Sequence record: KJ190157
Source of the DNA: Escherichia phage vB_EcoS_FFH_1
DNA length: 64,000 bases
Strand: one strand, 5' to 3'
Shown here one piece after another: positions 1,565 to 17,071 of the stretch (position 1 is its first letter; the number at the start of each line of letters is the position of its first letter). The translations under genes were made by a program, and so were the position numbers. The notes beneath the pieces are model-generated. The model was not told where the DNA came from. It saw only the letters and a list, made by a program, of their open reading frames with translations, and made no database searches.

Positions 1565-3229
1565 TTATGCAAAGAATTTACCGTTTTTAAAGTCAATCAA
1601 AGTGCGCTGACCGTTTGCATAGGTAATTAAATGCGTTTGCGTCCAGCTTGACGCGCCAACGTTGTAACCCATGTCCAGACTACCAGCCACGCCAGCGGTA
1701 TATACGCCACCGTAAATGCTGGCGGTATGGGTATGCCCCGTGTTTAACTTGCCCAATTTCTTAAATTGTTTAGGATTGCCACGGCTGCCGTTAATGCCGT
1801 TGTGACCGTGTACACCACATTCAATGCCTGCAATCTTGAAAGATTGATCAGTGGTTAGGAAAATGGCGTTAAACTCACAACCTGCAACCTTGCGCAAAGC
1901 ATAATCCAGCACGTTAAACGTTTCGTCGTGTTCACCGATTGCCGCGTAAATTGCAGCATTCAGGCGGTGATATAACTCGGCGTTTGCTGGATCGTCTTTA
2001 ATGTTAGCATTTCGATCATCAAGCCAACGGGATAACGCCAGATCGTGGTTTGATTCAACAATGATCGTTTGACTAAAATCACGTTCCATCGATTCCAGCA
2101 CGCGCCCAGTATCGATTAAGTCATCCAGAACTTTATCACGTCCGGCGGCGTACTGTTTTGCTAGGAATACACCGGATGCACGGTTATGATGATTGCGCGA
2201 TGTAAAATCATGCACGTCATGCACAAACTGATATTTTGGTTTAAGAATATCAAGCAAGCTATTTTCGCCATCCCATGACGCAGCGGCGCATTCTTCATCT
2301 AATTTTTCAGCGTGGATGTCGCCATATTGTAAACCTAAAACGTGCCCCGTTGTTTCATAGCATCCGGCAGGAGTAGCGCAAACATTCAGATCATAAAACA
2401 CGCCGCTTTCGTCCATTGTTTCAAGCTGGCGAACAAAAAATTCCCCGTCCTCATCGAACTCAACAATCAGCGCACCGAAATTATGCAGCGCCTCGGCCTT
2501 TTGTCCTGCTTTCTGCTGAATGTAATTTTTGAGCGTTGCCGTTCCGGTTGAATACATGCGGCGCACAATTTCACCTTTTAAAGCTGGCACGCTTTCGGCG
2601 GTGATTTTAGCCGCTCCAATTGCCAGACCTTCCAGATTAAGCGCGGTTGCAGTTTCAGCGAATCCAGAAAGCGGATAATCTGCGGTTGGCAAAACATTAA
2701 TTTCAGCCATGAAAGCAAAACGGCGGTTATTTAAAAACACGTTTTTGCTGCAAATATATTTATCAAATGCGGAATCATATTTGATTCCGTCTGCACCTTC
2801 TCCATTCTGGAAGCCGTTTTTATTATAAATATACTTAGAAACAAGCAAATCAGCGCCGATATATTTAGCAAATTGCTCCAGTGAGGCTAAAAAGTTTTTA
2901 TGCGGGAAAGTATTGTTCTGAATCGATGTAATAATAAAGCGTTTACCTTGTTTTACTTCCCATTGCTCAACCGTGCTAGAAACAATCCCCGCCGCTTCTG
3001 GGCGCTCATCGTTTTTAATGGCTTTTGCTACTTTCGCCGCTTTCGGTTTCGCTGGTTTATTTGCTTCCAGCCAATCACAAATAGCGGTGGAATGTTTTGG
3101 AGTATCGTAAACCGCTTTTGATATATCGTCGCAGACCTCCAGTTTAGTAGCGCGCAGACGTTTACCGTAGAAATTAAAGTCAGCGGCCATTTTCAGGATA
3201 ACGGTTTGTTTTTCTGCGGAAATAATCAT
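1565..3229 (-). CDS. A1: pre-early protein A1-like, calcineurin-like metallophosphoesterase
   Basis: 554 aa; motifs GDIHAE, GHNGINGSRGN, GHTHT typical of Mre11/SbcD-type phosphoesterases; size and position match T5 A1. Confidence 0.7.
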   Translation of the reverse strand: MIISAEKQTVILKMAADFNFYGKRLRATKLEVCDDISKAVYDTPKHSTAICDWLEANKPAKPKAAKVAKAIKNDERPEAAGIVSSTVEQWEVKQGKRFIITSIQNNTFPHKNFLASLEQFAKYIGADLLVSKYIYNKNGFQNGEGADGIKYDSAFDKYICSKNVFLNNRRFAFMAEINVLPTADYPLSGFAETATALNLEGLAIGAAKITAESVPALKGEIVRRMYSTGTATLKNYIQQKAGQKAEALHNFGALIVEFDEDGEFFVRQLETMDESGVFYDLNVCATPAGCYETTGHVLGLQYGDIHAEKLDEECAAASWDGENSLLDILKPKYQFVHDVHDFTSRNHHNRASGVFLAKQYAAGRDKVLDDLIDTGRVLESMERDFSQTIIVESNHDLALSRWLDDRNANIKDDPANAELYHRLNAAIYAAIGEHDETFNVLDYALRKVAGCEFNAIFLTTDQSFKIAGIECGVHGHNGINGSRGNPKQFKKLGKLNTGHTHTASIYGGVYTAGVAGSLDMGYNVGASSWTQTHLITYANGQRTLIDFKNGKFFA

Positions 3230-3607: not shown

Positions 3608-4015
3608 TTATTCGCCTGCGGCTTGTTTCACTTCATCGGCAACGCCCAGCAATTGCGCTACCGCATCCAGCGTTTCAAGTTTTGCGCTTTCCAGACTTGC
3701 CAGATCATCAGCGTCTTTGATAATGCCGGAATCAATAGCGTGTTTAGCGATAACGCGCACATAGTGAGCTTTACGCACAGAGCTACCGCCGCCAACTTTA
3801 CGCGGCTTATCGCTTTTTTGATAGGCTTTTGCGCTGGTCAATTTTGACCGAACGGATACTGGAGAAGCCGCGCCCACTGCTTTTGCAATCTCTTTCAGGC
3901 CGTCGCTATTTGCAAAATCTAAACCGTTTTCGTTGATTAACTGCTGGTACATAGAAACAGCTTTCTGAGTGTTTTCTTCATTCCATGCGAATTTTGCGGT
4001 TTTAGCGTTAGTCAT
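3608..4015 (-). CDS. A2: pre-early protein A2-like (putative DNA-binding)
   Basis: 135 aa ORF immediately downstream-left of A1; basic C-terminal half. Confidence 0.55.
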   Translation of the reverse strand: MTNAKTAKFAWNEENTQKAVSMYQQLINENGLDFANSDGLKEIAKAVGAASPVSVRSKLTSAKAYQKSDKPRKVGGGSSVRKAHYVRVIAKHAIDSGIIKDADDLASLESAKLETLDAVAQLLGVADEVKQAAGE

Positions 4016-4857: not shown

Positions 4858-5298
4858 ATTTTTAAAGAGCGTGGCGGTAAACTTCCCGCCGTGTAGTTCG
4901 TCATTGCCGCCCTACGTGATAAATAATAGCAAATACCAAAAATGGCGCAACCTTATTTTTGTAAAGAAACGTAAAGACAAGTGCCACCGGACACCGTGCG
5001 GCAATTGCCTAAGTTTAAAGGAAACGGGCGCGAATACCATAAAACCCAGCGGGTTGGCAAGTAATTTTTTCATTTATATTTGCCTTGCCCTACTTGACAA
5101 AACTTAAAAAGCTCGTGGTAGCGATAAACGAGGGTAGGCAATGCAATGGCATGGCTAAAACTTTCATCGCGTTCTAGGGCGTTTTAGGCCGCTTATTTTC
5201 GAATTAACAAATCATTAACAACCGCAAAATTGAAAAATAGTTGGAAAAGGTCTTGACTTTTAAAAATCAAGACCAAATGACTTAATTTAGTAAATAAA

Positions 5299-5817
5299 TT
5301 AATTGACAATTCCAAATTCAGCTTTTTTAGTTTCAAGCCATAATAGTAACTCTTGTAAATCATAACCAGACTTACTAACACGTTTGTTAGTAATAGGATT
5401 CTTAATTTGAGCAGTCAAATAGTCACGCCCGTAACTATCACGGGGGCGAACTTTATTAACGTAAATGTTTCTAGGGATACCATTAGCACGCTTACAGTTT
5501 TCATACTCACTAGGAGTACGATTATAATTATTCTGCGAACTATCAACCGCGCGAAGATTCCAGATGTTATTATTACGTGGGTTACGATCAATATGATCAA
5601 TCATTAGCTCGCTATCTATACCCCCATTCATTATACAAAAGATAATTCTGTGCACTTTGAATTGTCCCATATCTAATAATTCAACTTGCCAATAATTACC
5701 ATTTAAACCACCTGCGACGGCGTGATCTTCCCGCCAACGTAAAAATGATAACGCTGTTTCATCATAATAAAAGTAACTATTAAAAAGATCATAATCTATA
5801 TCTTTATACTTAGGCAT
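5299..5817 (-). CDS. HNH homing endonuclease
   Basis: 172 aa; HNH motif IDHIDRNPRNNNIWNLRAV plus AP2-like C-terminal DNA-binding region. Confidence 0.7.
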   Translation of the reverse strand: MPKYKDIDYDLFNSYFYYDETALSFLRWREDHAVAGGLNGNYWQVELLDMGQFKVHRIIFCIMNGGIDSELMIDHIDRNPRNNNIWNLRAVDSSQNNYNRTPSEYENCKRANGIPRNIYVNKVRPRDSYGRDYLTAQIKNPITNKRVSKSGYDLQELLLWLETKKAEFGIVN

Positions 5818-6007
5818 CTAATTGTTTCCTTATGTTATTAATTTAATCTCTATTATATTATATCAAAATAGTTAGCAAGCGAGCTAATGAGTTTTTCAGG
5901 ATTAGTTAGCAGACTCATAATCACGGTAAAATCCTATTAGCCAACTAACTATATTTTACGATATAATAACTTTATAAATTAGTTAGTGAGAAAAACTATC
6001 ATTTAAG

Positions 6008-6114
6008 TTATCCACAGACTTAATCACAGCACAAAATAATTTGACATGATAGGCGGCGATATAAGGACTTTTACACAGACTTATCCACATGTTATCCTAC
6101 TGTATAAATATACA
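6008..6114. repeat. left arm of large imperfect inverted repeat with two DnaA boxes
   Basis: TTATCCACA at 6008-6016 and 6081-6089; palindrome ACTGTATAAATATACAG at 6098-6114; reverse complement recurs at 8951-9058. Confidence 0.8.
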
Positions 6115-6382
6115 AGGTAAAAAGGTAGTGTTAACAACTGCAATCAATTTTAAGCCGCCTAAAACGCTTTCTAACGAGCTAAATGCGGTGGGGTAATATT
6201 AAAGTAAAGCCTCAATGCGTCGCCCTGGTGGCTTCGCCGTGTTTTGCTCTTTATTACACCGCTGCGCGGTTATCATAAAAATAGGCGCTAGGCAAGGAAA
6301 ATAAAAAGGTAAAATAATATTTGCCCCTAGAAAGAAAATACCTTTATCATTCACTCACCGATTAACGAGGGAGGCCGAACAA

Positions 6383-7393
6383 ATGAGGCTATATAAACCA
6401 GATAACGCAACCGTTTTAAAAGGTGCATTGCGCAACCTGCTGGACGGTGGCAAGTCAACCAGCATTAAACATTTTATTAACAAGGCTGAAACTATTCATC
6501 AAAACTTTTTTGATGATTATGACGCCTATGATATGGATAGTTTTCTACCATTATATAAGCAAGGGGCAACGCTAGTTTTATATAATCGGGATTGCCATAT
6601 CTTTACAGGCAGGGGAGCGGGGCCGGATACCGATTTTATTGTTGCGCAGGGTAATAATATTGTTGCGTATCATAGCAATTCAGGCCGTCAATCATTTAAT
6701 ATAAATAGTTTTGAGCTTATTGGGCTTGATCTGATAAATGGACTTTCTAGCATTGAGGGATTTTTAGATGTTATCTGGAAGTATTTACCCGCTGGATGGC
6801 ATAAGCCGGATAACGACGGATCTCAATATACTGGTATAATGGCTTTTGATGGCGATGGTAATTTTTTGTTACCTTCGAAATTATACCCGTATGTTTATAA
6901 TGATCTGATAGAAGAAGCCGGGTTTTCTTTCTGGAAAGATGAAGATCAGATTATTGACAGCGTAGAAAACCATGCTGTAAATTCTAACACTCAAAGCGTT
7001 AACACTCAAACTACTGAAAACAAAGGAAAAAACACCATGACCAAGATCGCTAATATTGTTGCCGCTAATAAATCCGCTGCTGTAAACGCTGCAAAACTGG
7101 AAGCAGGTAAAATTGCATTGACTCAAATTACGAAAGTAGCGGCTAAAAAAGCACCGTTCATGATCAAAGGCTATATTGATACGCCGATTGGTCGGGTAGT
7201 GATTGCCAACCTGCTGAGTGTAGCGGTTGACCAGTACGCCCCAAGTAACCAAAAGGCGAAAGCGGTGGCAGGTGCAGCTATGGAAGCGGCTATGTTAGAA
7301 ATGGTGCAAAGTTTTAACATCGCTGAGATGATTGATGAAATGGTAAAAGGTATTGATATTTCTACTTTTACCACTAGCACCGAAAGCGAGTAA
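6383..7393 (+). CDS. hypothetical protein
   Basis: 336 aa ORF, RBS GAGGGAGG upstream, terminator at 7422-7447. Confidence 0.6.
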   Translation: MRLYKPDNATVLKGALRNLLDGGKSTSIKHFINKAETIHQNFFDDYDAYDMDSFLPLYKQGATLVLYNRDCHIFTGRGAGPDTDFIVAQGNNIVAYHSNSGRQSFNINSFELIGLDLINGLSSIEGFLDVIWKYLPAGWHKPDNDGSQYTGIMAFDGDGNFLLPSKLYPYVYNDLIEEAGFSFWKDEDQIIDSVENHAVNSNTQSVNTQTTENKGKNTMTKIANIVAANKSAAVNAAKLEAGKIALTQITKVAAKKAPFMIKGYIDTPIGRVVIANLLSVAVDQYAPSNQKAKAVAGAAMEAAMLEMVQSFNIAEMIDEMVKGIDISTFTTSTESE

Positions 7394-7421
7394 TAGCTAA
7401 CCTAATGTAAAGTTTTGTAAA

Positions 7422-7447
7422 GGCCGCCTCTTATGGTGGCCTTTTTT
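7422..7447 (+). terminator. rho-independent terminator
   Basis: GGCCGCC...GGTGGCC followed by TTTTTT. Confidence 0.7.
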
Positions 7448-7510
7448 GTTATAATGCCTTTACACCGTTTGAGGACGGTTGAAAATTTTCCCAAAAATTG
7501 GAGGCTTAAA

Positions 7511-7741
7511 ATGGTTGCTTATTCTTCTGCTAGTCATCTGTTCACCGCTCAAGGCTGGGTATCTAACCGCGTTATTATTCACGAAATGGTGCAAGAATAT
7601 GGCATTGCTAAAACATACACTACCATTCAGGCGCTCTATGATAATGATCAAATCGATCAGCAAACGGCGGGCTTTTTGCTGGATACCCTGAAGGCGGAAC
7701 ATTGTACCAAAAAACAAGCCGCTAAAATTGTTTTAATGTAA
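7511..7741 (+). CDS. hypothetical protein
   Basis: start chosen at ATG after GGAGG RBS (table ORF begins 7433); terminator hairpin 7752-7775. Confidence 0.5.
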   Translation: MVAYSSASHLFTAQGWVSNRVIIHEMVQEYGIAKTYTTIQALYDNDQIDQQTAGFLLDTLKAEHCTKKQAAKIVLM

Positions 7742-7781
7742 GTAATAACGGGGCGTTATTTTCGCCCCGCTAACTAGGAGA

Positions 7782-7937
7782 ATGAAAATGGTTATTTTTC
7801 GAGCTATTTTAGCGGGTATCTTGGGCGCTATTTTATCGTTGTTTGCAATAGCTTTCGGTGTTCACGCGGTTATTATTGGCGCGGGTATCGCTGCATTTTC
7901 TTATCTGCTGGGCTGCATGACTAGTAAAGGAGAATAA
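7782..7937 (+). CDS. small hydrophobic peptide
   Basis: 51 aa, AGGAG RBS, Gly/Ala/Ile-rich single TM. Confidence 0.35.
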   Translation: MKMVIFRAILAGILGAILSLFAIAFGVHAVIIGAGIAAFSYLLGCMTSKGE

Positions 7938-7939
7938 AA

Positions 7940-8152
7940 ATGATCCGCAATGTTTCCCTTGCCCGTTCGAAAGGCTTTAAGCTGGTGGATGTTAACACGT
8001 TCGAGCGTGAAGATTGTAAAATCGAATATGTAGCACGTAATAAGAATGCCTTTCGTGTTACAGAAAAGAAATTTGACAAGCGCGGCAACGTGATCGCTGA
8101 AACGGTTAAACACTTTGCCACCTTTTACGCTGCGTTTCGTGGGGTGTTATAA
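7940..8152 (+). CDS. hypothetical protein
   Basis: 70 aa, RBS AAAGGAG. Confidence 0.5.
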   Translation: MIRNVSLARSKGFKLVDVNTFEREDCKIEYVARNKNAFRVTEKKFDKRGNVIAETVKHFATFYAAFRGVL

Positions 8153-8153
8153 A

Positions 8154-8498
8154 ATGGTTATTTATGAGGGCAACCGCTTTGTTGCTAATTGCCGCCCTGC
8201 ATTGCTAGCAAATTACTTAAATCAGCTTTCACCAGCTTATAAGGGCGTTATTAATATTTATGAAGGCAAGGCGCATTATAAAATCAATGCGGTCGTTGCC
8301 CGTGAACTAGCGTTTCAATTTTTGACCTTTGCATCTTGTGACGTTCAGGTCATGGGTGAAGCGTTAATTGCAGAAAATGAAGATGATTTTATTAATATTT
8401 TTCGCAAGATATGCACCGAGCGCCTGATAATGAAAGGCGCTTATATTCAATCCACTGCGGATAGTATTGAAACAGCGTTTCGAAAGGTGGCGCAATGA
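8154..8498 (+). CDS. hypothetical protein
   Basis: internal ATG of table ORF 8115..8498 chosen to avoid overlap. Confidence 0.45.
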   Translation: MVIYEGNRFVANCRPALLANYLNQLSPAYKGVINIYEGKAHYKINAVVARELAFQFLTFASCDVQVMGEALIAENEDDFINIFRKICTERLIMKGAYIQSTADSIETAFRKVAQ

Positions 8499-8698
8499 GC
8501 AATAAAATTGTTGTAACCAAAATCAGTACAATGGTTGATGTTTTTTACGTGCCCGATACGCCGGAAAACCGGCAAGCGGTCGAGCGTGGCGAGTATGATA
8601 AAGTGATTTATGATCACGATGGTTATTATCAGCATTTGGTCGATTCCTATGGGGAAGAGGAAAAGATCACGCATCAATTACCGGAGGATGGTTTATGA
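8495..8698 (+). CDS. hypothetical protein
   Basis: 67 aa, ATGA overlap with upstream gene. Confidence 0.5.
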   Translation: MSNKIVVTKISTMVDVFYVPDTPENRQAVERGEYDKVIYDHDGYYQHLVDSYGEEEKITHQLPEDGL

Positions 8699-8808
8699 AA
8701 CGATGGTTTAATCACTGGTACAAGCGGTTTTTAGTACGCCGTCGCAAATCTAGACATCAAGATGAGTGGCGGGAGTGGGCAAAGCGTAACGGTTGCCCGC
8801 TACTCTGA
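8695..8808 (+). CDS. small basic peptide
   Basis: 37 aa Trp/Arg-rich, ATGA overlap, terminator follows. Confidence 0.3.
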   Translation: MKRWFNHWYKRFLVRRRKSRHQDEWREWAKRNGCPLL

Positions 8809-8812
8809 AAAC

Positions 8813-8837
8813 GACGGGGATTAGCTCCCCGTTTTTC
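8813..8837 (+). terminator. rho-independent terminator
   Basis: ACGGGGA...TCCCCGT followed by TTTTT. Confidence 0.7.
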
Positions 8838-8950
8838 CATGCCTCCAGTTAAATACCCCCTTGTTTAGTATCCCCACCAAAATTAAACGCGTTAGAATGC
8901 GATCTAGGACGTTTTAGCGGTATATTAGAATTATTCACTACATAGGAATA

Positions 8951-9058
8951 CTGTATATTTATACAGTAGGATAAGCTGTGGATAAGTCTGTTAATAACGC
9001 CTCAAAATGGCTAGGATTCTGTCAAGTCAAATCGTGCTGTTAATAAGTCTGTGGATAA
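8951..9058. repeat. right arm of large imperfect inverted repeat with two DnaA boxes
   Basis: TGTGGATAA at 8978-8986 and 9050-9058; palindrome ACTGTATATTTATACAGT at 8951-8968. Confidence 0.8.
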
Positions 9059-9084
9059 CTTAAATAATAGTGTTTCTCACTTCC

Positions 9085-9240
9085 ATTCTTAAATGCAAAT
9101 CATTATCATTCGCATTTCACTTTCTAAATGAGAATCATTTCACTTCTTGAATAGTTCTCATTTCACTTTTTAAATGCGAATTATTATCATTCTCATTTCG
9201 CTTTTTAAATGAGAATAATTATCATTCGCATTCGCATTCA
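9085..9240. repeat. degenerate direct repeats (TTAAATG[A/C]GAAT...ATCATTC units)
   Basis: about five 25-35 bp units with internal dyad symmetry, read directly. Confidence 0.6.
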
Positions 9241-9242
9241 GG

Positions 9243-9275
9243 CGAGCGGGGGCAATTGCCCCCCGCGCTTTTGTG
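9243..9275 (+). terminator. hairpin/terminator
   Basis: GCGGGGGCAATTGCCCCCCGC followed by TTTTG. Confidence 0.55.
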
Positions 9276-9871
9276 CAAATCCGACATTGCTCCACGGGTG
9301 TTACGTGCGGGCATGTATGTGCGAATCCGACAATTTTTGGTAGTGTGCAAATCCGACCCGAAAAATTTTATAGTGTGCAAATCCGACAATGAATTTTCCC
9401 AAAAACTCCAGCAATCCGATGCTGCGCATCAATCCTGTGGAATTAGCTAGAATATGTGCAAATCCGACATGGGTTTATTTGTGCGAATCCGACAAGATTT
9501 TTGTGACTTTGATTGGAGGGCGTGTGATTGTAGGGGTTTGAGGAGAAGATGAGAGAGTGAGAGAAATTTGAGGGAACTGTGAGAGGGGCGCAGGATTGGT
9601 GCGGAGCACCTGATTTGCGGGGATTTTGGAGGAGATGTGAGATAACTTGGGTTAATTTGAGATAGGTGCAGAAAAAGCGAAATTTTATTAGCAAAATGGG
9701 GCAAAATAGCTTGACAAGTGAAAATTTCTGTGGCTCTAAAAACTCAGGCAATCATGGGCCTTCGGCCCGAAATAATGCTACTATTTTCAGGAGAGTAAGA
9801 GTTCCTAAAAACTTAGGCGTTTGTGCAAATCCGACCATAAATTTCTAGAAATGCAGTGTGCAAATCCGACA
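9272..9871. repeat. eight dispersed direct copies of TGTGC(A/G)AATCCGACA
   Basis: copies at 9272, 9318, 9346, 9374, 9455, 9480, 9822, 9857, all in the same orientation. Confidence 0.85.
9505..9665. repeat. polypurine (GA-rich) tract with strong strand asymmetry
   Basis: about 160 bp almost entirely G/A/T on the plus strand with GAG(A)G reiterations. Confidence 0.6.
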
Positions 9872-10334
9872 GTAATTTCTGGAAATGTGTTTTCAAAAAA
9901 TGTCTTCTAGAAATAACCGCCCTCCCTATAACCGCCCTGTATTAACCGCCTATTGCTGGAGTTTCTAGGAACAATGAAAACCGCCTGAGTTGACTGGAGA
10001 AACAGATTTAAAGTTTAATGTAAACTCTAGAGTTAGTGCTCAACTATTCCTAGAAACTTAGGAGTCTACTAGAAAGTGTTGTGCCATCCTAGCAGATGAG
10101 CGGCAACAGGTGTATCATCTTGAACACAGATATTGCCTTTAAATATTTTTATGTATTTTAAAAGTAAATAGTCCCCCATTTCATGTGAGATTTCCTCGTG
10201 GGGCGCGTGAGTATTACGGAAGACTTAGTAATTAGATCTATACTCGTGCTGTCGCAACGTATAGACGTAATACTAAGTGTAATAATCATCGCCCCTAGAG
10301 TTCAAAACAAGAGTTGTTTTTAATCTATGAGATT

Positions 10335-10364
10335 ATTATAACATGTGCCGCAATGAGTTGTCAA
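10335..10364 (-). promoter_or_regulatory. sigma70 promoter pointing into the repeat region
   Basis: minus strand TTGACA, 18 bp, TATAAT; no ORF immediately downstream. Confidence 0.5.
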
Positions 10365-10381
10365 GAAGATTTTGTTAACGT

Positions 10382-10738
10382 TTATACATCTCCTTCGAGA
10401 TTGGTATTGGGATCGTAAATTTTCTTGGCTCCTGTATTTAATAGGAATCGTTCTGCAAGTTGTGGGTGAATATCAAAGAACTCTGTGCATCCTTCGAATC
10501 CCTTTAAATTACAGCGGTATTTCTTAAAGTAGATATGTGCAGCGGCTTCTAGATCTCTAGGATTATGGGTTTCATAGATCCCATACACGTATAAATCGTC
10601 AAAACCACGATAAACTATCTTATCTAAGTTTAGTGTTTGAATCCTATTATGTGGATTCATACTAATACCGATCTTTGTTCTCTTAGGGATCTTCGTCAGA
10701 TCCCTATTTGCAAGAATATATACTTTATATAGTGACAT
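10382..10738 (-). CDS. hypothetical protein (possible GIY-YIG/T5orf172-like)
   Basis: 118 aa; weak resemblance only. Confidence 0.45.
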   Translation of the reverse strand: MSLYKVYILANRDLTKIPKRTKIGISMNPHNRIQTLNLDKIVYRGFDDLYVYGIYETHNPRDLEAAAHIYFKKYRCNLKGFEGCTEFFDIHPQLAERFLLNTGAKKIYDPNTNLEGDV

Positions 10739-11456: not shown

Positions 11457-12076
11457 TAATTACCCCTCTTATCTTTATTAAGGGCAGCTCCCAACGCCTC
11501 CATAATAACATCTTCTAAACTTCCATGTTTACTAGGATTATTAAAATGAATAGTACAAACAGAACTCCTAGAAACTCCAGCATCCACAGGTGCTACGCTT
11601 CGCATATCAGATTCAAAAGCTTCTTGGGTATGTTTCAACTGTACAGAAGGGCCGTAATCTTCCCCAAACTTATATGACTTCGTACTACTTACCACACCCC
11701 CACAAGGAACATTGTGCATATCCGACATTAATCTTTTATCGGAGTTATTCAGCATTGAGATTGTCCCTGACTGCCACGGATCTCTAATAGTCACTGGAGT
11801 ACTAGGACGGTTCACCTCGGTCTTCACGAGTTTGTACCCCGCATCGATCAGTGCATTAATCAGGTTATCCGCCGGGATGCGAGCCGTACCAAAAATCTTA
11901 CGAGCATCTTCGAGCTTACCTTCAAGATCTTTACATGCTTTAATACTAGTGTGTGCAAAGGTTAGCTTCATAGATTTGAATTGTACAGTAGCAGTTAAAT
12001 CTTTAAAGCTATAATCCCATGTATTCAGTTCATGATCTGGTACTACTTGAATAGATTGTTGTGCATATAAAGTCAT
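11456..12076 (-). CDS. hypothetical protein
   Basis: 206 aa ORF, ATG/stop abutting neighbour. Confidence 0.55.
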   Translation of the reverse strand: MTLYAQQSIQVVPDHELNTWDYSFKDLTATVQFKSMKLTFAHTSIKACKDLEGKLEDARKIFGTARIPADNLINALIDAGYKLVKTEVNRPSTPVTIRDPWQSGTISMLNNSDKRLMSDMHNVPCGGVVSSTKSYKFGEDYGPSVQLKHTQEAFESDMRSVAPVDAGVSRSSVCTIHFNNPSKHGSLEDVIMEALGAALNKDKRGN

Positions 12077-16480: not shown

Positions 16481-17071
16481 TTAGACATTTATATCTCCAC
16501 GCAATACGGCAGCTACATCTTCCCCTATTTGTAATACTTCGCCGGTAGTACAATTAACTACTCTATCATAGCTAGTAAACTTACCAGATACAATATCCTC
16601 CAGTGGGATTGGAGTTTTACTCATTTCAAATGAGACATTAATATAACGTGGATCACGTAGAGAAGTAGTATGTACATGCCCGTGAATATTTAGTTTGCCA
16701 CGAAGTTCATTAGGGTGCAAAGGGCAGTGAGATAGCCAAAACTTTTTGCCGCCTCCAGTCTGTTTACCTAGAGCCTGGATATCGTCATAAACTTCCGCTA
16801 AATCCCTGATGCTCAGTCCTTGACGTTCCGCATCATGATTACCCATAATAAGTTGATTAGGGACATTGTGGATAACCGACTTTAATTTGGTTAGACCTTC
16901 ACGACCTACTGCAATATCTCCTAGCAAAATAAGTTTTGTTCGTTTACCAATATGTTTAGACAAAGTATCTAGAATATACTCATCGTGCTCTTTCATGTTC
17001 TTAAACCACGGACGGAAACGTAACGCTCCAGGGTGGTCTAGATGCAAGTCTGACCAGAATTTAACTTTCAT
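16481..17071 (-). CDS. metallophosphoesterase
   Basis: 196 aa; motifs DLHLDH, GDIAVGREG, GNHDAE, HGHVHT. Confidence 0.7.
   Translation of the reverse strand: MKVKFWSDLHLDHPGALRFRPWFKNMKEHDEYILDTLSKHIGKRTKLILLGDIAVGREGLTKLKSVIHNVPNQLIMGNHDAERQGLSIRDLAEVYDDIQALGKQTGGGKKFWLSHCPLHPNELRGKLNIHGHVHTTSLRDPRYINVSFEMSKTPIPLEDIVSGKFTSYDRVVNCTTGEVLQIGEDVAAVLRGDINV

What the first reader, a model, noticed from the sequence alone, without database searches (positions are those of the whole stretch)
6008..9058. About 107-bp inverted repeats carrying paired DnaA boxes bracket a 2.8-kb plus-strand gene cassette
Two DnaA-box consensus sites (TTATCCACA) plus a palindrome sit at 6008-6114, and their near-exact reverse complement at 8951-9058. 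Between the arms lies the only plus-strand coding block in the first 36 kb (6383-8808, six ORFs). T5 is known to have DnaA boxes and large inverted repeats around its first-step-transfer injection stop region; here the arms specifically delimit a transcription unit, which could equally make this an invertible or mobile segment, or a DnaA-titrating element.
Basis: partly seen in the sequence, partly recalled or inferred. Interest (0 to 1): 0.6.

Follow-up and report, generated by a model that had tools for sequence, protein, structure and literature searches.

The report
Known T5 inverted repeats with DnaA boxes
The two inverted repeats are real, but they are the already described "IRC/IRD" repeats with DnaA boxes in the first-injected end of T5-like phage genomes, flanking a dispensable early-gene block, and nothing suggests a mobile or switchable element.

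Summary
The window starts at the left terminal repeat (first-step-transfer DNA) of a T5-like phage. The arms exist at 5985-6114 and 8952-9081, matching at 103/130 positions. They are not "near-exact": two blocks match at 90-93% and the spacer between them at about 51%. Four of the five perfect TTATCCACA sites in 64 kb lie in the arms. These are T5's annotated inverted repeats C/D and D'/C'. Davison (bioRxiv 10.1101/866236) already described their paired DnaA boxes and proposed that they help stop DNA injection, which remains untested. The bracketed genes are the pre-early genes T5.011-T5.017. A published T5 mutant lacks the left arm and the cassette and is viable. I found no recombinase or transposase and no target duplication. 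There is no copy in E. coli genomes or plasmids, and orientation is fixed in 27 close relatives. The mobile and programmed-switch readings are therefore not supported. Two additions came out of this work. First, the cassette is truly inverted between the arms in Sugarlandvirus and in My1, which implies at least two evolutionary inversions. Second, the inner end of each arm carries a palindrome that matches the LexA/SOS-box consensus at 19/20 positions. It is conserved out to a Vibrio phage, and I found no mention of it in the literature I could search. Verdict: already known; low interest.

The parts
5985..6114 (+). Left arm, equivalent to T5 'inverted repeat C - spacer - inverted repeat D' (Repeat Region 2). 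It consists of an outer block 5985-6034, a spacer 6035-6073 and an inner block 6074-6114.
   Evidence: the repeat finder pair I1; alignment; block identities. It is 82% identical to AY587007 6022-6151, where IR C and IR D are annotated.
6008..6028 (+). DnaA-box pair 1 of the left arm: TTATCCACA (perfect), then gac, then TTAATCACA (variant).
6069..6100 (+). DnaA-box pair 2 plus a third unit: TTTTACACA, gac, TTATCCACA, tg, TTATCCTAC.
6098..6117 (.). Degenerate copy of the LexA-box-like palindrome (TACTGTATAAATATACAAGG). In this window CAG has become CAA. It is intact in 23 of 27 relatives' left arms.
6289..6350 (+). Promoter-like sites upstream of the first cassette gene. They correspond to the promoter annotated upstream of T5.011 in T5.
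   Evidence: consensus scan only; T5 annotation; experimentally characterised promoter upstream of gene 011 cited in bioRxiv 10.64898/2026.04.02.716235
6383..7393 (+). T5.011 homologue, 336 aa, DUF7566. It is toxic to E. coli when expressed alone, according to the literature.
   Evidence: Pfam PF24450, E=2.6e-114; T5 annotation; toxicity
7419..7444 (+). Terminator-like hairpin after T5.011.
   Evidence: annotated terminator at the same place in T5
7433..8808 (+). Six small pre-early ORFs: 7433-7741, 7782-7937, 7940-8152, 8115-8498, 8495-8698 and 8695-8808. In T5 the matching stretch holds T5.012 to T5.015, followed by further small ORFs that the two T5 records annotate differently. By order and length, 8115-8498 corresponds to T5.015, the Ung-dependent nickase.
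   Evidence: ORF list; collinear match to T5; no Pfam hits; RefSeq product name for T5.015 and PMC8201957 abstract
8814..8836 (+). Terminator-like hairpin with a T-run directly after the last cassette ORF (ACGGGGA-ttagc-TCCCCGT TTTT).
   Evidence: read directly from the sequence; not listed by the consensus scan
8949..8968 (.). Perfect 9+2+9 palindrome TACTGTATATTTATACAGTA, equivalent to T5 'palindrome D'. It matches the LexA/SOS-box consensus TACTG(TA)5CAGTA at 19/20 positions.
   Evidence: only match with 3 or fewer mismatches in 64 kb, 0.02 expected; CTG-N10-CAG intact in 27/27 right arms; conserved in six lineages
8952..9081 (-). Right arm, equivalent to T5 'inverted repeat D' - spacer - inverted repeat C'' (start of Repeat Region 3, the injection-stop region). 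DnaA boxes on the minus strand: 8966-8974 (TTATCCTAC), 8977-8985 (perfect), 8989-8997 (TTATTAACA), 9038-9046 (TTATTAACA) and 9050-9058 (perfect).
   Evidence: It is 91.5% identical to AY587007 9333-9462, where IR D' and IR C' are annotated.
9074..9255 (+). Repeats and palindromes of the injection-stop region that abut the right arm (66-nt family D2; palindromes I2 and I4).
   Evidence: the same place in T5 carries direct repeat C copies and palindromes E-I; Davison's DRE repeats
9272..9879 (+). Eight copies of TGTGCAAATCCGACA... (T5 'direct repeat D'), the remainder of the injection-stop region.
   Evidence: T5 annotation
5299..5817 (-). HNH homing endonuclease (hegG-like) immediately left of the left arm. 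It is an insertion present in only some relatives.
   Evidence: Pfam HNH_3, E=1.5e-12; T5 hegG annotation; Davison

Best explanation
The arms are the IRC-spacer-IRD and IRD'-spacer-IRC' repeats of the T5 first-step-transfer DNA. They are two inverted copies of a roughly 130-bp non-coding module.

Each copy carries two pairs of DnaA-box 9-mers at 3-bp spacing. At its cassette-proximal end it has a third box-like unit that abuts a 20-nt palindrome with the LexA-box consensus.

The most likely function is that the module is a landing pad for host DNA-binding proteins on the first DNA to enter the cell. DnaA is the probable ligand (inferred), and LexA possibly a second one (inferred). The right copy adjoins the injection-stop repeats and is the functionally important one. 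The best available hypothesis, which is published but untested, is that a nucleoprotein complex formed there helps arrest or anchor the DNA after about 8% has been transferred.

The left copy sits between the divergent pre-early promoters and is dispensable.

The bracketed block is the accessory pre-early operon T5.011-T5.017, with its own promoter and terminators.

The inverted arrangement is not a transposon or a programmed switch. Because the inner blocks are 90% or more alike, however, they have served as substrates for rare homologous inversions of the cassette during the evolution of the family.
For: Identity (shown):
- The arms are collinear with T5 at 82% and 91.5% identity, exactly where AY587007 annotates inverted repeats C, D, D' and C'.
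- Davison describes the same 131-bp pair with eight paired DnaA boxes in 25 T5-like phages.

The motifs are not chance (shown):
- 4 of 5 perfect TTATCCACA sites in 64 kb lie in the arms, against 0.63 expected.
- The palindrome is the only match to the LexA consensus with 3 or fewer mismatches, against 0.02 expected.

A host ligand rather than a phage ligand (inferred):
- The same TTATCCACA boxes and the CTGT-N8-ACAG palindrome recur in Sugarlandvirus, My1, Slocum and PM135. In Vibrio phage BBMuffin all five perfect boxes in 19 kb form two inward-facing clusters around a block of small genes.
- Over the same range, phage A1 falls to 34-46% identity and A2 to 40%.

Sequence constraint rather than pairing:
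- Within-genome left-versus-right identity equals between-genome identity (0.706 vs 0.703).
- Orthologous arms are 84.5% (left) and 92.2% (right) alike.

The right copy matters more:
- It is better conserved, and CTG-N10-CAG is intact in 27/27 right arms against 23/27 left arms.
- The T5 deltaL-deltaR mutant is deleted for about 5394-9160 of AY543070. That removes the left arm and the cassette but keeps the right arm, and the mutant is viable.

Not mobile or switchable.

Evolutionary inversions:
- Homologues of T5.011 and T5.015 (Sugarlandvirus), and of T5.011 and window ORF 8495-8698 (My1), lie between the arms in reversed order and on the reversed strand, while the flanks stay collinear.
- The outer block and spacer of each arm keep their flank-specific type in both orientations.
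Against: - No binding of DnaA or LexA to these sites has ever been shown. The BF23 paper states that experimental studies of their role are lacking.
- Viability of the mutant lacking the left arm shows the pair is not required. This weakens models that need both arms, such as looping or a 'knot'.
- Whether two-step transfer was altered in that mutant was not measured.
- It is not obvious how a cytoplasmic protein bound to DNA that has already entered would stop further entry.
- The left-arm palindrome is disrupted in this window and in 3 of the 26 relatives examined, so LexA binding at the left arm cannot be essential.
- The relaxed DnaA consensus TTWTNCACA is not significantly enriched over the whole window (12 found vs 7.2 expected). 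Only the perfect boxes and their clustering are significant.
Confidence: 0.7

Rival explanations
1. The sites are recognised by a phage pre-early protein rather than by host DnaA or LexA. The candidate is A2, a DNA-binding dimer needed for second-step transfer, alone or with A1. On this view the arms mark where transfer is restarted or where the DNA is processed.
For: A2 is essential, binds double-stranded DNA as a dimer and associates with A1 (Davison). The arms contain tandem 11-12-bp units and a dyad-symmetric 20-mer, which would suit a dimeric binder.
Against: The motifs stay at the exact host consensus (TTATCCACA; CTGT-N8-ACAG). Meanwhile A2 diverges to 66%, 59%, 49% and 40% identity in Sugarlandvirus, My1, Slocum and PM135. 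A co-evolving phage protein and its site would be expected to drift together. Injection arrest occurs without phage protein synthesis (Davison), although restart does need A1 and A2.
Confidence: 0.12
2. The arms form a DnaA-titrating element. They soak up host DnaA to block new rounds of chromosome replication early in infection.
For: They are clusters of high-affinity consensus boxes on the first DNA to enter the cell, which superficially resembles the E. coli datA locus.
Against: There are only about 8-10 sites per injected genome, against several hundred high-affinity boxes on the host chromosome (established knowledge). The host DNA is degraded within minutes through A1 anyway, which makes titration redundant. 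Deleting one cluster causes no lethality.
Confidence: 0.05
3. The arms have no biochemical function of their own. They are conserved module boundaries, meaning homology patches that let T5-like phages exchange or flip the variable accessory cassette by recombination.
For: Cassette content and length vary widely between conserved arms. The distance between arms ranges from about 1.6 kb (L031) to about 3.9 kb (L005) among close relatives. Sugarlandvirus and My1 share only two detectable homologues each with the window's cassette. The inversions map to the arms.
Against: Recombination anchors do not need exact host-factor consensus motifs, fixed 3-bp box spacing or a conserved dyad. These are retained out to Vibrio phages, where the rest of the arm sequence is unrecognisable. 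There is no concerted evolution of the two arms.
Confidence: 0.08
4. The segment is a programmed invertible element, like the G segment of Mu or the C segment of P1. It would switch orientation within a phage population.
For: Inverted repeats bracket a transcription unit, and both orientations exist in the family.
Against: No invertase or other recombinase was found in the cassette or in the adjacent ORF. The arms are 130 nt and 79% alike, rather than short crossover sites. Orientation is uniform in 27 distinct T5-like arm pairs. It is also uniform in every record for which both a T5.011 and an A1 hit were listed. The cassette carries its own promoter, so inversion would not switch expression.
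Confidence: 0.02
5. The arms are the terminal inverted repeats of a mobile element, such as a composite transposon or homing cassette, that inserted into the terminal repeat.
For: Terminal inverted repeats bracket accessory genes, and an HNH homing endonuclease lies next to the left arm.
Against: No transposase was found. There is no direct repeat of the flanks: AAATTAGTT on the left against TCCATTCTTA on the right. There is no copy in E. coli genomes or plasmids. The arms occupy the same positions throughout the family, and some lineages keep only the right arm (Davison). GC content between the arms (0.37-0.49) is not clearly different from its flanks. The HNH gene lies outside the arms and is itself the sporadic insertion.
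Confidence: 0.01

Closest known systems
Bacteriophage T5 inverted repeats C/D and D'/C', also called IRC-spacer-IRD and IRD'-spacer-IRC' (Repeat Regions 2 and 3 of the left terminal repeat). Sources: GenBank AY587007 annotation; Davison, bioRxiv 10.1101/866236.
   Same: Same position, order and orientation. The arms are 82% and 91.5% identical to T5. The length is about 130 nt, with the same paired DnaA boxes at 3-bp spacing, the same palindrome D and the same bracketed genes T5.011-T5.017.
   Different: Only strain-level differences. This window has all eight box positions, whereas T5 is reported to have seven. It has a CAG-to-CAA change in the left palindrome. The inter-arm distance is 2837 nt, against about 3180 nt in T5.
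Chromosomal DnaA-box clusters of E. coli (oriC, datA, DARS)
   Same: Several consensus TTATCCACA boxes are closely spaced in a defined orientation. One pair (6081/6092, mirrored at 8966/8977) has the 2-bp spacing seen in oriC arrays (established knowledge).
   Different: The arms are not at a replication origin: T5 origins lie mid-genome, and replication genes are not on the first-injected DNA (Davison). I looked for neither an unwinding element nor an IHF site. Most pairs are 3 bp apart. Binding is unproven.
LexA (SOS) operators of Gammaproteobacteria, consensus TACTG(TA)5CAGTA
   Same: The right-arm palindrome matches 19/20 positions, and the family-wide consensus of the arms equals the operator consensus.
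   Different: It does not overlap a recognisable promoter. It lies about 170 bp upstream of the nearest promoter-like site on the left, and downstream of the cassette terminator on the right. Binding is untested, and the left copy is broken in this window.
Site-specific invertible segments (Mu G, P1 C, Salmonella hin)
   Same: Inverted repeats flank a gene block, and both orientations occur in nature.
   Different: There is no invertase and no short crossover sites. No alternative gene fusions are created by inversion. Orientation is fixed within genera.

Membership tests
T5 first-step-transfer repeat pair (IRC-spacer-IRD / IRD'-spacer-IRC') | Sequence homology to the annotated T5 repeats at the syntenic positions: between hegG/T5.010 and T5.011, and between the last cassette gene and the injection-stop repeats. 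| tested here: met
   The left arm is 82% identical to AY587007 6022-6151 and the right arm 91.5% to 9333-9462. The flanks are collinear.
T5 first-step-transfer repeat pair (IRC-spacer-IRD / IRD'-spacer-IRC') | Two conserved blocks separated by a roughly 50-nt spacer, about 130 nt in total, present as an inverted pair. | tested here: met
   Blocks match at 45/50 and 38/41, the spacer at 20/39, and the total is 130 nt.
T5 first-step-transfer repeat pair (IRC-spacer-IRD / IRD'-spacer-IRC') | DnaA or DnaA-like boxes in pairs 3 bp apart, two pairs per arm. | tested here: met
   Pairs at 6008/6020, 6069/6081, 8977/8989 and 9038/9050.
Functional injection stop signal | A cis-acting requirement for arrest of DNA transfer at about 8% of the genome. 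| not testable with these tools
   Only positional evidence exists: the right arm abuts the annotated iss region. The literature says functional tests are lacking.
DnaA-binding site cluster | Multiple matches to the 9-mer consensus TTATCCACA / TTWTNCACA, clustered beyond chance. | tested here: met
   4 of 5 perfect boxes in 64 kb lie in 260 nt of arms, against 0.63 expected in the whole window.
DnaA-binding site cluster | Demonstrated DnaA binding. | not testable with these tools
   No footprint or ChIP data were found.
LexA operator | CTGT-N8-ACAG dyad with an AT-rich centre. | tested here: met
   The right arm 8949-8968 matches 19/20. The dyad is intact in 27/27 right arms. The left arm of this window does not meet it (CAA).
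LexA operator | Overlap with, or proximity to, a promoter that it represses; LexA binding. | tested here: inconclusive
   Only weak promoter-like matches lie within or next to the palindromes (minus-strand sites 8957-8930 and 6134-6107). Binding is not testable here.
Site-specific invertible segment (serine-invertase type) | An invertase gene in or beside the segment. | tested here: not met
   Pfam scan of all seven cassette ORFs and the adjacent ORF found only DUF7566 and HNH_3.
Site-specific invertible segment (serine-invertase type) | Both orientations among clonal or closely related genomes. | tested here: not met
   One orientation in 27 distinct T5-like arm pairs. The opposite orientation appears only at genus or subfamily distance.
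Transposon / insertion sequence | A transposase, target-site duplication, and copies at other loci. | tested here: not met
   No transposase. The flanks are not duplicated. No hits in E. coli genomes or plasmids.

The most novel reading that the evidence does not exclude
The arms may be composite landing pads for two host chromosome regulators: tandem DnaA boxes fused to a consensus LexA operator. This module is conserved across Demerecviridae from E. coli phages to a Vibrio phage, and I found the LexA part mentioned nowhere in the searchable literature. If LexA really binds, the first-injected DNA of T5-like phages would be wired to both the host's replication-initiation status and its SOS status. 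For example, arrest or release of DNA transfer, or protection of the injected fragment, could respond to LexA cleavage once A1 starts destroying host DNA. In addition, the inverted pair has repeatedly flipped the accessory pre-early operon during evolution.
Probability: 0.25. Interest if true: 0.55.

Novelty: already known. Interest (0 to 1): 0.2.

Why it matters
As submitted, the finding re-discovers a feature that is already annotated and published for T5, so it adds little. The underlying biology is still open. How T5 stops injecting after 8% of its genome has been unexplained for more than 50 years, and these repeats are the leading cis-acting candidates. Three results from this check sharpen that question:
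- The right arm, not the pair, is the constrained copy. The left arm is deleted in a viable mutant.
- The motifs keep the exact host consensus across very divergent phages, which points to host ligands.
- A consensus LexA-type operator sits next to the DnaA boxes, which adds a second testable host factor.

The evolutionary inversions also show that the cassette's orientation relative to A1/A2 and the stop signal is not functionally critical.

Tried and rejected
- Mobile element: megablast of arm-cassette-arm against complete E. coli genomes and against plasmids gave no match. The Pfam scan found no transposase or recombinase. Rejected.
- Known RNA family: Rfam found nothing at gathering threshold in 5500-10500.
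- Foreign origin: the composition profile shows no clear GC anomaly. The GC skew simply follows the coding strand.
- Concerted evolution or selection for complementarity: within-genome left-versus-right identity is the same as between-genome identity (0.706 vs 0.703; permutation p = 0.03, a negligible effect). Rejected.
- Reaching more distant relatives through IMG/VR with an A1 alignment returned only the same genomes. I used GenBank phage records instead.
- Davison 2015 (Bacteriophage 5:e1086500, PMC4743489) could not be read. I therefore cannot exclude that the LexA-like palindrome or the inversions are mentioned there or in Heusterspreute et al. 1987.
- Promoter scan of the arm spacers found only weak 9/12 matches, no better than expected from shuffles. 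I did not pursue a promoter role for the arms.
- The apparent conserved antisense ORFs inside T5.011 (6881-7252 and 7171-7380, minus strand) are shadows of the conserved sense gene.

Full report
**1. What the window is**

Megablast of 5800-9300 finds 476 phage records, almost all T5-like phages of Escherichia, Salmonella and Klebsiella. Phage T5 itself matches at 88.6% over 99% of the query. A 12-kb query from the start of the window aligns from near position 1 of several complete genomes. The window therefore starts at the left terminal repeat, the DNA that enters the cell first (first-step transfer, FST). On the minus strand the window carries:
- a dmp-like ORF (1-735)
- A1 (1565-3229)
- A2 (3608-4015)
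- small pre-early genes
- an HNH endonuclease (5299-5817)

**2. The observation**

The repeat finder reports arms at 5985-6114 and 8952-9081: 130 nt, 79% complementary, 2837 nt apart. A pairwise alignment and direct counting show three parts:
- outer block: 45/50
- spacer: 20/39
- inner block: 38/41

Ten shuffles of the surrounding 5.5 kb gave at best 26-30/41, against 38/41 observed. The 32-nt inner core occurs only at these two places in 64 kb.

TTATCCACA occurs five times in the window, four of them in the arms, against 0.63 expected. Each perfect box has a variant partner 3 bp away, and a third unit (TTATCCTAC) follows the inner pair. All boxes point into the cassette.

The plus-strand block 6383-8808 has seven mechanical ORFs. 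It is indeed the only substantial plus-strand block up to about 36 kb.

**3. It is a known feature**

The T5 record AY587007 annotates inverted repeats C (6022-6060) and D (6112-6152), and D' (9332-9372) and C' (9424-9462). It also annotates palindrome D, the promoters, the terminators and ORF011-017 between them. The window's arms align to exactly those intervals, at 82% and 91.5%. AY543070 annotates the region starting just left of the right arm as the injection stop signal.

Davison (bioRxiv 10.1101/866236) treats the pair as 131-bp IRC-spacer-IRD and IRD'-spacer-IRC'. He reports eight DnaA or DnaA-like boxes in pairs 3 bp apart in 25 T5-like phages. He notes that the distance between the arms is highly variable, and that some lineages lack part or all of the left arm. 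He proposes that membrane-bound DnaA arrests injection at these sites. Later papers repeat this and state that functional tests are lacking.

**4. The cassette**

It corresponds to T5.011-T5.017. T5.011 is DUF7566 and is toxic when expressed alone. T5.015 is an Ung-dependent nickase.

A 2026 preprint built a T5 mutant deleted from hegG to 017. Mapping its primers onto AY543070 puts the deletion at about 5394-9160. That removes the left arm (6098-6227) and the whole cassette and keeps the right arm (9412-9541). The mutant is viable, with small plaques. So the cassette is accessory, and the pair of arms is not required.

**5.

- Mobile element: there is no transposase or recombinase and no flank duplication. 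There is no copy in 5,426 E. coli genomes or 72,556 plasmids, and no clear compositional anomaly.
- Programmed inversion: there is no invertase. In 36 IMG/VR loci (27 distinct arm pairs) the order A1, A2, left arm, cassette, right arm, stop-region repeats is always collinear. In records where both T5.011 and A1 hits were listed, the strands agree with this.
- Selection for complementarity: within-genome left-versus-right identity (0.706) equals between-genome identity (0.703). Orthologous left arms are 84.5% alike and right arms 92.2%. The two copies therefore evolve independently under sequence constraint, and the right one is constrained more strongly.

**6. Evolutionary inversions**

In Sugarlandvirus (IMG/VR loci L039-L041; KpGranit MN163280) the whole terminal repeat is transcribed in one direction. 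A full-length T5.011 homologue lies between the arms on the same strand as A1/A2 (37% identity, E=5e-41). A T5.015-like ORF lies there too, and the two are in reversed order. The flanking T5.007, T5.008 and T5.018 homologues stay collinear.

In Pectobacterium phage My1 the T5.011-like gene and a homologue of window ORF 8495-8698 are likewise reversed in order and strand between arms at 7821-7886 and 11792-11857.

Serratia phage Slocum and Proteus phage PM135 have the T5 orientation. Vibrio phage BBMuffin has an analogous divergent block, although its genes were not compared with those of T5's cassette.

An A1 neighbour-joining tree gives (BBMuffin,(PM135,(Slocum,(My1,(Sugarlandvirus,T5 group))))). 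The ranking by A2 identity agrees. On that tree at least two inversion events are needed. This rests on a single-gene tree and should be checked.

In an alignment of 11 arms from 6 lineages, the outer block and spacer keep a flank-specific type in both orientations. The A2 side has "GCAC(A/G)AAA..TTGACA", and the stop-signal side of Sugarlandvirus, My1 and Slocum has "TTATACA..TTGTAAA". This places the breakpoints in or just inside the inner block, which is the part most alike between the arms.

Davison noted ORFs "read in the opposite direction" in these types, but described the T5 genes as missing and replaced. The homologues found here show that it is an inversion.

**7. A LexA-type operator in the arms**

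The palindrome at the inner end of the right arm, TACTGTATATTTATACAGTA (8949-8968), matches the E. coli SOS-box consensus TACTG(TA)5CAGTA at 19/20 positions. It is the only match with 3 or fewer mismatches in 64 kb, against 0.02 expected.

CTG-N10-CAG is intact in 27/27 right arms and 23/27 left arms. This window's left copy has CAA.

A copy with 4 or fewer mismatches lies beside the DnaA boxes in both arms of Sugarlandvirus, My1 and Slocum, and beside one box cluster in PM135 and in BBMuffin. The consensus of the 11-arm alignment is GAGTTATCCACAGACTTATCCACAGGTTATCCTACTGTATATATATACAGTA. That is tandem DnaA boxes abutting the exact LexA consensus.

Davison's preprint does not mention LexA or SOS. 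No paper in the searchable library combines T5 or the injection stop signal with LexA or SOS boxes. Older subscription papers could not be read.

Because A1 and A2 diverge strongly while these motifs stay at the host consensus, host proteins are the more likely ligands. This is an inference.

**8. Mechanism**

Shown:
- identity with the T5 repeats
- non-random motifs
- stronger constraint on the right arm
- dispensability of the left arm and the cassette
- absence of mobility or switch machinery
- historical inversions

Inferred:
- DnaA binds the arms, and perhaps LexA does too.
- The right-arm complex contributes to arrest or anchoring of the entering DNA. This follows from its position directly left of the injection-stop repeats and, in T5, about 200 bp left of the major nick annotated at 7.9%.

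I put DnaA binding at about 0.6, LexA binding at about 0.4-0.5, and a causal role in injection arrest at about 0.25-0.3.

**9. Verdict**

The feature is already annotated and published. The mobile and switch interpretations are not supported. Interest is low for the finding as submitted. The LexA-type operator and the repeated inversions are modest additions worth a short experimental follow-up.

Noticed in passing
window 8949-8968 and 6098-6117; also L039 4237-4256 and 8170-8189, L083 7854 and 11805, L082 6445 and 11826, L084 11781, L085 542: The 20-nt 'palindrome D' at the inner end of each arm matches the LexA/SOS-box consensus (19/20 in the right arm). It is conserved next to the DnaA boxes across six lineages, including a Vibrio phage. 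I found no mention of it in the searchable literature.
   Followed up: partly
L039-L041, L081 (Sugarlandvirus) and L083 (My1), between their arms: The cassette is genuinely inverted relative to A1/A2: homologues of T5.011 and of one other gene are reversed in order and strand. On an A1 tree this needs at least two inversion events, and the breakpoints map to the inner block of the arms.
   Followed up: yes
right-arm palindrome in 27 T5-like genomes (alignment; counts): The 2-nt centre of the palindrome is AA in 14 genomes and TT in 8. The two 20-mers are exact reverse complements of each other, which could reflect flipping of the palindrome centre (for example by template switching) rather than two independent substitutions.
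   Followed up: no
window 5163-5195 and 6151-6183: A second, weaker inverted pair (33 nt, 76%) corresponds to T5's annotated inverted repeats B and B'. It brackets the HNH endonuclease gene plus the left arm.
   Followed up: no
window 9272-9879 and 9074-9255: Eight copies of TGTGCAAATCCGACA and a set of 66-nt repeats and palindromes lie right of the right arm. These are the T5 injection-stop-region repeats (direct repeats D and C, palindromes E-I). GC skew peaks sharply here, at +0.52 around 9450-9749.
   Followed up: partly
window 16867-16875 (minus strand): This is the only perfect TTATCCACA box in the window outside the arms, lying among early genes beyond the terminal repeat.
   Followed up: no
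L085 (Vibrio phage BBMuffin) 464, 514 (+) and 3902, 4005, 4060 (-): All five perfect DnaA boxes in 19 kb form two inward-facing clusters around a block of small genes (gp2-gp11) that is transcribed divergently from A2-A1-dmp. This is the same architecture as in T5, despite 34% A1 identity.
   Followed up: partly
window 6383-7393: T5.011 (DUF7566) has a C-terminal part, roughly residues 200-336, that is conserved much further than the N-terminal part. Only that part is detectable in Slocum, My1, PM135 and some Klebsiella phages.
   Followed up: no
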